From: Escherichia coli
Lineage (GTDB): Bacteria > Pseudomonadota > Gammaproteobacteria > Enterobacterales > Enterobacteriaceae
Assembly: GCF_030013205.1 (NCBI RefSeq)
Contig: NZ_CP122648.1
Strand: one strand, 5' to 3'
Length of the DNA stretch: 64,000 bases
The position numbers were made by a program. Shown one piece after another: positions 12,001-15,000 of the stretch. Position 1 is the stretch's first letter. Every line of letters begins with the position of its first letter.

Positions 12001-15000
12001 GAATGTGATCGTAATCACGTTTAATAGGGCGACTTTTCCACGCCTGAAGATAACCATGATAGTTCGTCCACAACAACACTGGCTGCGCCGTATTTTTGTC
12101 TGGCATGGCTCAGTATTATCCAAGATATCCTCGCGCTTACTACTCAATTTTCTCTTTTCTATCGCTGTTATTTTCATGCTGCCCTGGTACACGCATTTGG
12201 GCATCAAATTCACCCTCGCACCGTTCAGCATTCTCGGTGTCGCCATCGCCATTTTTCTTGGTTTTCGTAATAATGCCGGGTACGCCCGTTACGTTGAAGC
12301 GCGAAAACTTTGGGGGCAGTTGATGATTGCCTCACGGTCGTTACTGCGGGAGGTAAAAACGACATTGCCGGATTCGGCAAGTGTAAGGGAGTTTGCCCGG
12401 CTGCAAATTGCCTTCGCCCATTGTTTACGCATGACATTACGCAAACAGCCACAGGCGGAAGTGCTGGCACATTATCTCAAGACTGAAGATCTTCAGCGTG
12501 TACTGGCTTCGAACTCTCCAGCTAACCGTATCTTGTTAATAATGGGAGAATGGTTGGCGGTTCAGCGCCGCAATGGACAGCTTTCAGATATCCTGTTTAT
12601 TAGCCTCAACGATCGGCTTAACGATATTTCAGCGGTTCTGGCAGGCTGCGAGCGCATTGCCTATACGCCAATTCCCTTTGCCTACACCCTGATTTTGCAT
12701 CGTACCGTTTATCTGTTTTGTATCATGCTGCCGTTCGCGCTGGTCGTGGACCTGCATTACATGACGCCTTTTATCTCTGTGCTGATTTCCTACACTTTTA
12801 TTTCGCTGGATTGTCTGGCGGAAGAACTGGAAGATCCCTTCGGTACTGAAAACAATGATTTACCGCTGGATGCCATCTGCAACGCTATTGAAATTGACCT
12901 GTTACAGATGAACGATGAAGCAGAAATTCCGGCAAAAATTCTTCCCGATCGTCATTACCAGCTGACGTAAGATTTACTCCGTACGCCGGGCAACAATAAA
13001 CAGACGCGGAAATGCCAGCAGTATCTGTCCGTTCTCTTGCAGTGGATACTGCTCTTCCAGCATCTGATGGTAGCGCGTAAGAAAATGCTGCTGTTCGCTC
13101 TCGGTCAGATCCTGTAACCACGGACGTAATCCAGTGGCGGTCACCCAATCGATAATCGCCTGGTGCGACGGCATCTGGTGATAGTAGGTGGTTCGCCAGA
13201 TATCGACCTCACATCCGGCTTCGCTCAAAATATCGTAGTAAGCATGAACGCCAGCCAGCGGCTCACGCCCGCGATCCGGATAATTTTGTTCCCAGGCAAC
13301 TTCGCGCATGAGCACATGGGTTGGCTCTAGCCAGTTATCTGGCATCTGTACTGCCAACACACCATGCGAATTAAGTAAAGAAACCAGATGAGGGAACAAT
13401 TCGTAGTGGTCGGGCAGCCATTGCAGTGAGGCATTAGCAAAAATCAGATCGAGTGCCTGTTCCGGTTGCCAGTTGCGGATGTCTGCTTCCACGAACTGGC
13501 AGTCTGGCAAAGCACTGCGCGCTTCAGCAATCATCGCCGGAGACGAGTCGATGCCTGTTATCCTGGCCGCAGGCCAACGTTGATGCAGCAGGGCGGTGCT
13601 GTTACCTGGGCCACAGCCAAGATCGGCAACGTATTCGATATTCTCCAGCGGCACTCTGGCAAGCAACTCCACCGCCGGACGCGATCGTTCAGCGGCAAAG
13701 TGCAGATATAAAGAGGGGTTCCAGTCAGACATTTTTTTACTCCCGTCAGCGCGTTACCCCAATTGTAGATAAAACTGATAAATTCGCCTCACGGCATCAA
13801 CCCATTGAACAGACGTTTTTTACGCGGCCCGGTCATTAAAGATTCCAGTTTCGCGACACAGGTTTTGTAGTGGGGCGTGGTTTTATGGAATGCCACTGCG
13901 TCTTCATCTTTATAGGCTTCGTAGATATAAAAGCGCGAATTCACTTCCGGGTCCTGTAAGACATCGAAGCGCAAATTGCCTTCTTCCTGTACAGAGCCCA
14001 GGTGGTTCTGGCGAAAAACTTCGATAAACTCGTCAACCTTGTCTTCATGAACGTTAATTTCAACCAGTGTGACGTGCATAATTCTTCTCCTTAAATCCGC
14101 AGTTACTGTTTTTCACTCAGATAGAGTTCATATGCCCGATCAGCCGTTTCGTTATGGTGAACCACCGCCTGTACGGCTTTCATCATCGCCACCGGATGGT
14201 CAGACTGGAAAATATTCCGCCCCATATCCACACCAGAAGCGCCCTGATCGATAGCCTGCCAGCACATTTCCAGCGCCTCGCGCTCCGGTAGTTTTTTACC
14301 GCCAGCAATAACAATGGGTACCGGACATCCGGCAACAATCCGTTCAAAACCTTTTTCGACATAATAAGTTTTGATAATCTGCGCCCCCATTTCAGCGGCG
14401 ATTCGAGTCGCGAGCGAGAAATAACGCTGATCGCGCACCATATCTTTGCCCACGCCAGTCACGGCCATGGTCGGCATTCCCACTTTCATTCCGGCATCGA
14501 CCAGCTGAATAATATTTTTGATCGACTGATGTTCATATTCGCTGCCGATATAAACCTGCGCCGCCACCGCGCAACTGTTCAGGCGCACGGCGTCATCCAT
14601 CGATAACGCCACGGCTTCATTACTTAATTCCGCCAGAATAGAGTTCGCACCTGACGCCCGCAGTACCACTGGCTTATTAGTCGCCGGGGGGACTACGCTG
14701 CGCAAAATGCCGCGCGTACACATTAATACATCGGCATGTTCAAACAGCGGGGCGATATTTATATCAATGCGTTCAAGTCCGGTAGTCGGCCCCTGAAAAT
14801 AACCATGGTCAAAGGCCAGCATCACGGTGTTACCCGTTTTCGGATTAAATATCCGTGATAAGCGTGACTGCATTCCCCAATCCAGCGCACCGCAACCTTT
14901 CAGGGTAAAAGGGATATTTTGTTGCGGTTGATCGGTACGAAAATCTTTACCATCTTTAATATCGTCTAAATCTGCCATAACGTACTCCGGTTAAGTAATG

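What the first reader, a model, noticed from the sequence alone, without database searches (positions are those of the whole stretch)
12968..12976. yneE and tam converge with only 3 bp between their stop codons
There is no room for a terminator on either side, so the two transcripts must overlap at their 3' ends, creating potential antisense interference between a bestrophin-type channel gene and the lsr-tam transcript.
Basis: seen in the sequence. Interest (0 to 1): 0.25.

Follow-up and report, generated by a model that had tools for sequence, protein, structure and literature searches.

The report
Back-to-back yneE and tam genes
Two E. coli genes that face each other end only 3 bases apart, so their messenger RNAs overlap at the tips; this is real and already documented, and about a quarter of facing gene pairs in E. 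coli are just as tight, so it is ordinary.

Summary
yneE (+, stop TAA 12968-12970) and tam (-, stop 12974-12976) are separated by 3 bp (gat). The window is E. coli, and K-12 MG1655 is annotated the same way. No intrinsic-terminator-like site lies near the junction. The inferred transcript overlap is already published. tam-yneE is one of 165 convergent "excludons" in the E. coli map (NAR 2025). A 2020 data set lists two RNase III-cut double-stranded RNA duplexes on the last ~25 nt of tam, so yneE-strand RNA runs at least 28 nt past its stop. The arrangement is not unusual. In 300 kb of MG1655 annotation, 10 of 37 convergent gene pairs have 3 bp or less between stops, or overlap. A published RNA-seq study found 276 of 370 convergent operons overlapping. 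The 3 bp gap is kept across Escherichia. In other genera both genes have equally tight junctions with different partners, so nothing is specific to this pair. Antisense interference is possible but unshown, and RNase III mutants show no rise in either mRNA. One weak lead is a conserved hairpin inside the tam 3' end that could mark the end of the incoming transcript. Verdict: real, ordinary, already known.

The parts
12056..12970 (+). yneE coding sequence (304 aa, bestrophin-family inner membrane protein); stop TAA at 12968-12970
   Evidence: ORF list; RefSeq annotation; Pfam Bestrophin_2 E 8.8e-99
12971..12973 (.). 3-bp spacer (gat) between the two stop codons. Its length is fixed across Escherichia, but its letters vary (ttg, tta, aag in other species)
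12974..13732 (-). tam coding sequence (252 aa, trans-aconitate 2-methyltransferase); stop TAA read on the - strand at 12976-12974
12973..12998 (.). Site of two published p19-captured, RNase III-generated ~21-nt RNA duplexes with reads from both strands. This is physical evidence that yneE-strand RNA and tam mRNA pair here
   Evidence: Huang et al. 2020 mBio Table S3 (PMC7373196); mapped to the window with 1 mismatch and to MG1655 exactly
13017..13053 (+). Hairpin (12-bp stem AGCAGTATCTG(t/c)...GGATACTGCT) inside the last 85 nt of tam. It would form in yneE read-through RNA 47-83 nt past the yneE stop. It is a candidate pause site or 3'-end-protecting structure, has no U tract, and its status is inconclusive
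   Evidence: Fold. In an alignment of 35 tam 3' ends the helix is 93.4% paired on this strand and 77.2% on the tam-sense strand. Against synonymous recodings, p=0.19 for the window and 0.008-0.03 for other Escherichia. No Term-seq 3' end is reported there
12950..12967 (.). Weak 5-bp hairpin (CGTCA-ttaccagc-TGACG) in the last six yneE codons. The stops and spacer that follow it (TAAGATTTAC) are only mildly T-rich, so it does not meet the terminator criteria on either strand
12355..12380 (-). Terminator-like hairpin plus T-run on the tam-sense strand, about 600 nt past the tam stop and inside yneE. It could end tam read-through, but sites like this occur at chance frequency
   Evidence: 3 sites found against 2.6 expected in shuffles. 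No Term-seq 3' end at the matching MG1655 position
13733..13788 (-). 56-bp lsrG-tam spacer without a terminator-like site, so read-through from lsrACDBFG into tam is possible
11866..11887 (+). uxaB intrinsic-terminator-like hairpin (9 pairs, T-rich tail). It marks the upstream boundary of the yneE transcription unit

Best explanation
This is an ordinary compact junction between two convergent, unrelated genes, and neither gene has a terminator of its own. RNA polymerase leaving yneE runs into the tam coding region. Polymerase leaving tam, whether it started at tam's own stationary-phase promoter or came through from lsrACDBFG, runs into yneE. The 3' parts of the two mRNAs are therefore complementary. 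They form some double-stranded RNA, which RNase III cuts. Transcription then ends diffusely inside the neighbouring gene through weak signals, Rho or polymerase collisions, and not at a defined terminator. The tight spacing arose when the intergenic spacer was lost in the Escherichia ancestor. It reflects the general tolerance of E. coli for terminator-less convergent junctions, not a device specific to this pair. Shown: the geometry, the absence of a terminator motif, the overlap, and the RNase III-cut duplexes. Inferred: where and how each transcript ends, and that any regulatory effect is small.
For: - Geometry and annotation.
- No terminator-like site within about 590 nt of the junction on either strand. 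The 200 nt on each side fold no better than shuffles (z 0.14 and -0.69).
- tam-yneE is listed among 165 convergent excludons of MG1655.
- Two RNase III duplexes lie at window 12973-12998.
- p19-captured dsRNA reads are 38-256 RPM for tam and 41-437 RPM for yneE. Total RNA on the two strands of yneE is 11.3 and 19.4 RPM, against 71.7 and 3.4 for tam.
- Base rates: 10 of 37 sampled convergent pairs are equally tight, and all 10 are on the excludon list, against 2 of the 27 wider pairs. 276 of 370 convergent operons overlap, by 286 nt on average.
- Comparative data: the 3-bp gap is kept in five Escherichia species while the spacer letters vary. Citrobacter has 44-977 bp and Pluralibacter 199 bp, with the same CDS lengths, so it was the spacer that was lost.
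- tam is abutted within -10 to +8 bp by a DsbD_TM-redoxin gene in Enterobacter and by a CaiF/GrlA gene in C. amalonaticus.
- The yneE stop is overlapped by a GFA gene in Citrobacter and by a GNAT gene in Enterobacter.
Against: - No data set I could read maps the actual 3' ends of either transcript. Curated Term-seq ends and Rho-dependent regions from Adams et al. 2021 contain nothing within about 900 nt of the junction. That may only mean low expression in those conditions.
- The origin of the antisense RNA is inferred from position, not shown. It could be read-through from the neighbour or start at an internal antisense promoter.
- The strand label for yneE in the RNA-seq sheet is wrong, so it is ambiguous which of its two values is sense.
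- A conserved hairpin in the tam 3' end hints at some organised 3'-end formation.
Confidence: 0.8

Rival explanations
1. A functional convergent excludon. When the lsr operon or tam is induced by AI-2, cAMP-CRP or stationary phase, read-through RNA antisense to yneE lowers YneE production, and the reverse also happens. The mechanism would be polymerase collision plus RNase III cleavage of the duplex, linking quorum-sensing or stationary-phase state to an anion-channel-like protein.
For: Overlap and RNase III duplexes are documented. yneE carries similar read numbers on both strands, which is unusual next to tam's 20:1 ratio. The junction is fixed at 3 bp across Escherichia.
Against: - No reciprocal expression data exist for this pair.
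- Reads of both genes fall instead of rising in two RNase III mutants.
- Both genes seem active at the same growth stage. tam rises on entry to stationary phase. The abundant yneE 5'-UTR 3' end appears in only one of three Term-seq conditions, probably LB at OD 2.0.
- Both genes take different tight convergent partners in other genera, so nothing is specific to this pair.
- Being on the excludon list follows almost automatically from the tight spacing (10 of 10 tight pairs against 2 of 27 wider pairs).
Confidence: 0.1
2. An embedded termination element. The conserved hairpin at 13017-13053, inside the last 85 nt of tam, would be the pause, termination or 3'-end-protecting structure for whichever convergent gene abuts tam (yneE in Escherichia). 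It would work like the hairpin of the overlapping bidirectional terminators that act through polymerase collisions.
For: - The helix is kept in 93.4% of cells on the strand antisense to tam and 77.2% on the tam-sense strand (68 against 2 G.U cells).
- Pair 18-46 is GC 23, AU 6, GU 5 and is never broken.
- Mean stability is -16 to -21 kcal/mol where a convergent gene abuts tam (Escherichia, Enterobacter). It is -6.7 where the downstream gene is co-directional (C. freundii complex).
- It is more stable than synonymous recodings in E. albertii (p 0.008) and E. coli L003 (p 0.03).
- The model for such hairpins is described in the collision paper.
Against: - It is not significant for the window's own sequence (p 0.19).
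- Other 44-nt windows inside tam fold equally well.
- There is no U tract.
- No Term-seq 3' end is reported at the matching MG1655 position.
- Only about three independent lineages are compared.
- The structure was derived on the strand it then favours.
- The Enterobacter null used E. coli codon usage.
- Collision-driven termination is reported to work poorly for weakly expressed pairs.
Confidence: 0.08
3. Rho-dependent termination shortly after each stop codon, once the transcript is no longer translated. This would keep the overlap short.
For: General knowledge that Rho ends untranslated and antisense transcripts in E. coli. There is a mild C-over-G stretch 220-300 nt past the yneE stop (C 0.35, G 0.21).
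Against: There is no marked C-rich, G-poor stretch in the first 200 nt on either strand, and none within 600 nt past the tam stop (largest C/G 1.4). The bicyclomycin data of Adams et al. list no Rho-dependent region near the locus. An RNase III duplex also lies in the 3' end of lsrG, about 850 nt past the yneE stop, which suggests antisense RNA reaches far.
Confidence: 0.2

Closest known systems
Convergent excludons / overlapping 3' ends of convergent operons in E. coli (Sesto et al. 2013 concept; Conway et al. 2014; ExcludonFinder 2025)
   Same: Adjacent genes on opposite strands whose transcripts overlap at the 3' ends and give RNase III-cut dsRNA. tam-yneE is itself on the published list.
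   Different: The reciprocal, mutually exclusive expression that gives the excludon its name has not been shown for this pair. The little data available (rnc mutants) does not point to it.
Other terminator-less tight convergent pairs of E. coli K-12, e.g. yadE-panD (3 bp), ycaM-ycaN (0 bp), yjaH-zraP (1 bp), zraR-purD (-4 bp), gutQ-norR (-4 bp)
   Same: Same geometry (stops 3 bp or less apart, or overlapping), and all are on the same excludon list.
   Different: Only the gene identities differ.
Overlapping bidirectional terminators acting through RNA polymerase collisions (Ju et al. 2019; Wang et al. 2022 preprint; model pair ynaJ-uspE)
   Same: A convergent pair without a canonical intrinsic terminator, with a hairpin-forming sequence in the overlap zone.
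   Different: Those elements lie between the genes and give sharp 3' ends on both strands. Here the hairpin is inside a coding region, no sharp ends are reported, and both genes are weakly expressed.
Classic overlapping convergent pairs dnaQ-rnhA and ilvA-ilvY
   Same: Early single-gene examples of convergent transcripts that overlap and end inside the neighbour. They are cited as references 19 and 20 in Conway et al..
   Different: For those pairs the transcript ends were mapped experimentally. For tam-yneE they were not in any source I could read.

Membership tests
Convergent excludon | Two adjacent genes on opposite strands, tail to tail | tested here: met
Convergent excludon | Their transcripts overlap (RNA-level evidence) | tested here: met
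   Taken from published data, not new experiments: the ExcludonFinder list, and p19 duplexes with reads from both strands at window 12973-12998
Convergent excludon | The overlap is processed by RNase III | tested here: met
   The duplexes are in the table of perfectly paired 21-22-nt RNase III products with 2-nt overhangs
Convergent excludon | Expression of one gene lowers expression of the other (mutually exclusive expression) | not testable with these tools
   No paired expression series or mutants were available. The only hint is that reads of both genes fall in rnc mutants, which does not favour it
Intrinsic (Rho-independent) terminator | G+C-rich hairpin directly followed by a U run, at or just after the stop codon | tested here: not met
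   There is no such site on either strand between 12381 and 14200. The nearest are inside yneE at 12235-12248 (+) and 12380-12365 (-), at chance frequency
Overlapping bidirectional terminator (collision type) | Hairpin-forming sequence in the zone shared by both transcripts | tested here: inconclusive
   The hairpin at 13017-13053 is conserved with a strand bias, but it is not significant for the window itself (p 0.19)
Overlapping bidirectional terminator (collision type) | Sharp 3' ends of both transcripts flanking the hairpin | tested here: not met
   No curated Term-seq 3' end within about 900 nt of the junction in three conditions. Low expression could hide them
Rho-dependent terminator | C-rich, G-poor untranslated RNA stretch, with read-through on Rho inhibition | tested here: not met
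   C/G stays between 0.5 and 1.65 within 600 nt on both strands. No bicyclomycin-sensitive region is listed at the locus
lsr operon (tam as its last gene) | Same strand as lsrG, short spacer, no terminator between them | tested here: met
   56-bp spacer 13733-13788 with no terminator-like site
lsr operon (tam as its last gene) | Co-transcription and co-regulation with lsrACDBFG | not tested
   The literature read here treats lsrACDBFG as the unit and tam as 'located downstream'. tam is kept in B2 strains without lsr and is induced in stationary phase. tam read density exceeds that of lsrG and lsrF
Bestrophin family (YneE) | Match to the bacterial bestrophin profile over its full length | tested here: met
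   Pfam PF25539 Bestrophin_2, E 8.8e-99, residues 1-283 on profile positions 1-287 of 288

The most novel reading that the evidence does not exclude
The hairpin inside the last 85 nt of tam (13017-13053) would be a conserved, coding-region-embedded 3'-end-forming element. It would be read on the opposite strand and serve whichever convergent gene docks at the tam stop codon: yneE in Escherichia, a DsbD_TM-redoxin gene in Enterobacter, a CaiF/GrlA gene in C. amalonaticus. This would explain why different genes can abut tam within a few bases without a terminator of their own.
Probability: 0.1. Interest if true: 0.35.

Novelty: already known. Interest (0 to 1): 0.08.

Why it matters
It matters little. 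The junction is in the reference annotation of E. coli K-12. The transcript overlap is already catalogued in published genome-wide maps. The general phenomenon, most convergent operons overlapping at their 3' ends, has been described since 2014 and for single genes since the 1980s. If the overlap did tune YneE or Tam levels, it would add one weak link between stationary-phase or AI-2 physiology and a poorly understood bestrophin-like membrane protein. Nothing seen here points to that. The one useful by-product is the comparison across genera. Both genes repeatedly form terminator-less junctions with unrelated partners, which argues that such junctions are tolerated by default and are not built for regulation.

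Tried and rejected
- Intrinsic terminators: the scan found none near the junction.
- General RNA structure around the junction: z-scores 0.14 and -0.69, so rejected.
- Known RNA families: an Rfam scan of 11800-14200 gave only a sub-threshold chance match (RAGATH-25, 17 bits against a cut-off of 49, E 0.61).
- Rho signals: no clear C-over-G stretch.
- Mapped 3' ends:
  - The Adams et al. 2021 tables hold no entry near the junction.
  - Supplements of Dar and Sorek 2018, Choe et al. 2022, Conway et al. 2014 and ExcludonFinder are not held.
  - The TERMITe and SMRT-Cappable-seq supplements have no entry for these genes.
  - The SEnd-seq paper of Ju et al. 2019 is not held.
- CDS extension: I considered that the tight gap arose because a coding sequence extended into the spacer. 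I rejected this because Tam (252 aa) and YneE (304 aa) have the same lengths and ends in Citrobacter, where the gap is 44-977 bp.
- Hairpin specific to the yneE-tam adjacency: I rejected this because Enterobacter, where yneE is not adjacent, has the strongest version.

Full report
**The observation.** The + strand at the given coordinates reads ...cag ctg acg TAA gat TTA ctc cgt.... The ORF list puts the end of the + strand ORF at 12970 and a - strand ORF at 12974..13732. The two stop codons (12968-12970 and 12974-12976) are therefore separated by exactly 3 bp (gat). The window is Escherichia coli. A 1-kb query across the junction is 100% identical to swine isolates such as K_EC180, and it is found at 80% coverage or more in 5262 of 5426 complete genomes. 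RefSeq annotates the two genes as yneE (bestrophin family protein, 12056-12970) and tam (trans-aconitate 2-methyltransferase, 12974-13732). lsrG, F, B, D, C and A lie upstream of tam on the same strand. K-12 MG1655 has the same 3-bp gap: tam 1607346..1608104 and yneE 1608108..1609022. Pfam confirms the identities, with Bestrophin_2 at E 8.8e-99 and SAM-methyltransferase domains.

**How unusual the spacing is.** It is not unusual. I read the annotation of six 50-kb stretches of MG1655, chosen before looking, and listed every adjacent convergent CDS-CDS pair. Of 37 pairs, 10 (27%) have 3 bp or less between stops, or overlap:
- yadE-panD 3
- ycaM-ycaN 0
- yjaH-zraP 1
- amiD-ybjS, ybjD-ybjX, yedP-dgcQ, gutQ-norR and zraR-purD, each -4
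- yedA-vsr -12
- aceK-arpA -32

In the window itself the other convergent gaps are 56, 24, 396, -35 and 14 bp. Conway et al. 2014 reported that 276 of 370 convergent operons in E. coli give complementary 3' ends, overlapping by 286 nt on average (PMC4161252).

**What lies around the junction.**
- The consensus scan finds no hairpin plus T-run near the junction on either strand. Its three sites in 11800-14200 are the uxaB terminator (11866-11887) and two chance-level sites inside yneE (3 found, 2.6 expected).
- The 200 nt on each side fold no better than shuffled sequence (z 0.14 and -0.69).
- Rfam gives nothing.
- The RNA downstream of either stop has no marked C-rich, G-poor stretch of the kind associated with strong Rho loading.
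- The lsrG-tam spacer (56 bp) also lacks a terminator-like site, so polymerases from the lsr operon can enter tam.

**Published RNA evidence.**
- *Excludon map.* ExcludonFinder (NAR 2025, PMC12288877) lists tam-yneE among the 165 convergent excludons of MG1655. These are pairs whose RNA-seq-defined transcript ends overlap in at least half of 58 transcriptomes. All 10 tight pairs of my sample are on that list, against 2 of the 27 wider pairs. Listing is therefore close to an automatic consequence of the geometry.
- *RNase III duplexes.* Huang et al. 2020 (mBio, PMC7373196) captured RNase III products with the p19 protein. Their Table S3 holds perfectly paired 21-22-nt duplexes with reads from both strands. 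It has two entries at 1606103-1606129 in the older K-12 coordinates, where tam ends at 1606128 and yneE at 1606132. The sequence maps exactly to the end of tam in MG1655 and, with one mismatch, to window 12973-12996. The partner strands cover 12975-12998 (and the sequence). RNA of the yneE strand therefore extends at least 28 nt beyond the yneE stop and pairs with tam mRNA.
- *Read counts.* The same paper gives p19-captured dsRNA reads of 38-256 RPM for tam and 41-437 RPM for yneE. In total RNA, the two strands give 71.7 and 3.4 RPM for tam but 11.3 and 19.4 RPM for yneE. The strand label for yneE in that sheet is wrong, so I cannot say which value is sense. Either way both strands of yneE are transcribed at similar levels.
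- *A further duplex* lies near the 3' end of lsrG, about 850 nt past the yneE stop.
- *No mapped ends.* The curated Term-seq ends and bicyclomycin-sensitive regions of Adams et al. 2021 (PMC7815308) contain nothing within about 900 nt of the junction. The real 3' ends therefore remain unmapped in what I could read.

**Comparative evidence.** A scan of one genome per species with Tam gave 36 loci.
- In all five Escherichia representatives (E. coli, E. whittamii, E. albertii and two unnamed species) the gap is exactly 3 bp. Its letters differ (ttg, tta, aag; gat here), so the spacing is kept but not the sequence.
- In Citrobacter the genes still converge, but they are 505-977 bp apart. In C. portucalensis (505 bp) the gap holds an extra GFA-family gene whose stop overlaps the yneE stop by 2 nt.
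- C. sedlakii has 44 bp and Pluralibacter 199 bp.
- The protein lengths and ends are the same everywhere. Escherichia therefore lost the spacer, and the coding regions did not grow.
- In Enterobacter and Lelliottia tam is abutted at -10 to +8 bp by a convergent DsbD_TM-redoxin gene. In C. amalonaticus it is abutted at 2 bp by a CaiF/GrlA gene.
- In Enterobacter quasihormaechei the yneE stop is overlapped by 13 nt by a convergent GNAT gene.

Both genes thus form terminator-less junctions with unrelated partners. This argues against anything specific to the tam-yneE pair.

**One lead.** Read on the + strand, the last 85 nt of tam contain a 12-bp hairpin (13017-13053), 47-83 nt past the yneE stop.
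- *For it:*
  - In an alignment of 35 tam 3' ends the helix is paired in 93.4% of cells on this strand and 77.2% on the tam-sense strand (68 against 2 G.U cells).
  - One pair switches GC, GU and AU without ever breaking.
  - The hairpin is stable where a convergent gene abuts tam (means -16 to -21 kcal/mol). It is weak in the C. freundii complex, where the downstream gene is co-directional (-6.7).
- *Against it:*
  - For the window's own sequence it is no better than synonymous recodings (p 0.19). It does better in E. albertii (0.008) and another E. coli (0.03).
  - Other windows inside tam fold as well.
  - There is no U tract.
  - No Term-seq end is reported there.
  - Only about three independent lineages are compared.

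I keep it as a low-probability possibility.

**Mechanism.**
- *Best-supported account.* This is tolerated read-through at a compact junction. Each polymerase runs into the neighbouring gene, the 3' parts of the mRNAs are complementary, some duplex forms, and RNase III cuts it. The geometry, the overlap and the cleavage products are shown.
- *What is inferred.* How each transcript finally ends, and whether expression is affected, are inferred.
- *Evidence against strong mutual repression:*
  - Reads of both genes fall instead of rising in two RNase III mutants.
  - tam is induced on entry to stationary phase independently of lsr, and it is kept in B2 strains that lack lsr (PMC12263705).
- *Head-on collision model.* The model of Ju and Liu (preprint 10.1101/2022.10.23.513370) is a possible contributor. 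However, it is reported to be inefficient for weakly expressed pairs.

**Comparison with what is known, and verdict.** The closest known class is the convergent excludon, or overlapping convergent operon. This pair is already on the published list, and the annotation has been in the K-12 reference for decades. The defining regulatory feature of an excludon, reciprocal expression, is untested here. The finding is real, ordinary and already known.

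Noticed in passing
window ~12042 (+), 14 nt upstream of the yneE ATG at 12056; MG1655 1609037 (-): Adams et al. 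2021 Term-seq lists an abundant 'orphan' RNA 3' end (47,630 reads) in the yneE 5' UTR, just before the ribosome-binding region. It follows two small hairpins and has no U tract. It appears once in the three-condition table; judging by its place in the file this is probably the LB OD 2.0 sheet. It could mean premature termination or processing of most yneE-promoter transcripts.
   Followed up: partly
window 1044-1470 (-): marR, the repressor of the multiple-antibiotic-resistance operon, is annotated as frameshifted in the identical strain K_EC180. That would be expected to derepress marA.
   Followed up: no
L010 3858-4268 (+) and 4265-5179 (-); same layout in L017, L022, L024: In the Citrobacter freundii complex a GFA-family gene (Pfam PF04828) sits between tam and yneE. 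Its stop codon overlaps the yneE stop by 2 nt (CTAA), so there yneE has an even tighter convergent junction with a different partner.
   Followed up: yes
L014 3759/3765; L008-L037 (Enterobacter, Lelliottia); L030 and L033 (C. amalonaticus): The tam stop codon is abutted at -10 to +8 bp by a convergent DsbD_TM-redoxin gene in Enterobacter and Lelliottia, and at 2 bp by a CaiF/GrlA-family gene in C. amalonaticus. The downstream edge of tam is a recurrent site of gene gain and loss with almost no spacer kept.
   Followed up: yes
L020 5571-6119 (+) and 6107-... (-): In Enterobacter quasihormaechei the 3' end of yneE overlaps a convergent GNAT acetyltransferase gene by 13 nt.
   Followed up: partly
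L007 3763-4029: Escherichia sp. MOD1-EC7003 has lost most of yneE. Only a diverged C-terminal remnant is left, with uxaB about 300 bp from the tam stop. The remnant still ends 3 bp from tam, with TGA instead of TAA.
   Followed up: partly
window ~13819-13842 (3' end of lsrG); older K-12 coordinates 1605260-1605283: Huang et al. 2020 also list an RNase III duplex with reads from both strands near the 3' end of lsrG, about 850 nt past the yneE stop. Antisense RNA is therefore present well beyond tam. Its origin (long yneE read-through or an internal antisense promoter) is unknown.
   Followed up: no
window 8763-10181 (+): The diguanylate cyclase gene next to uxaB is 1419 bp here (sensor domain plus GGDEF), whereas MG1655 dgcF is annotated at 948 bp. 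The K-12 copy is shorter at one end.
   Followed up: no
window 52130-54591 (+/-): An IS1 element (53269-53966) splits an ABC transporter gene into two partial pseudogenes. Several other genes in the window are annotated as frameshifted: ydeM, a fimbrial usher, an ECSE_1600-family autotransporter at 22985-27774, and a LysR-type gene at 29970-30867.
   Followed up: no
Huang et al. 2020 Table S1c (PMC7373196): The strand column of that supplementary sheet disagrees with the genome annotation for several genes at this locus (yneE and uxaB are given as +, lsrC as -). Its sense and antisense columns should therefore be used with care.
   Followed up: partly
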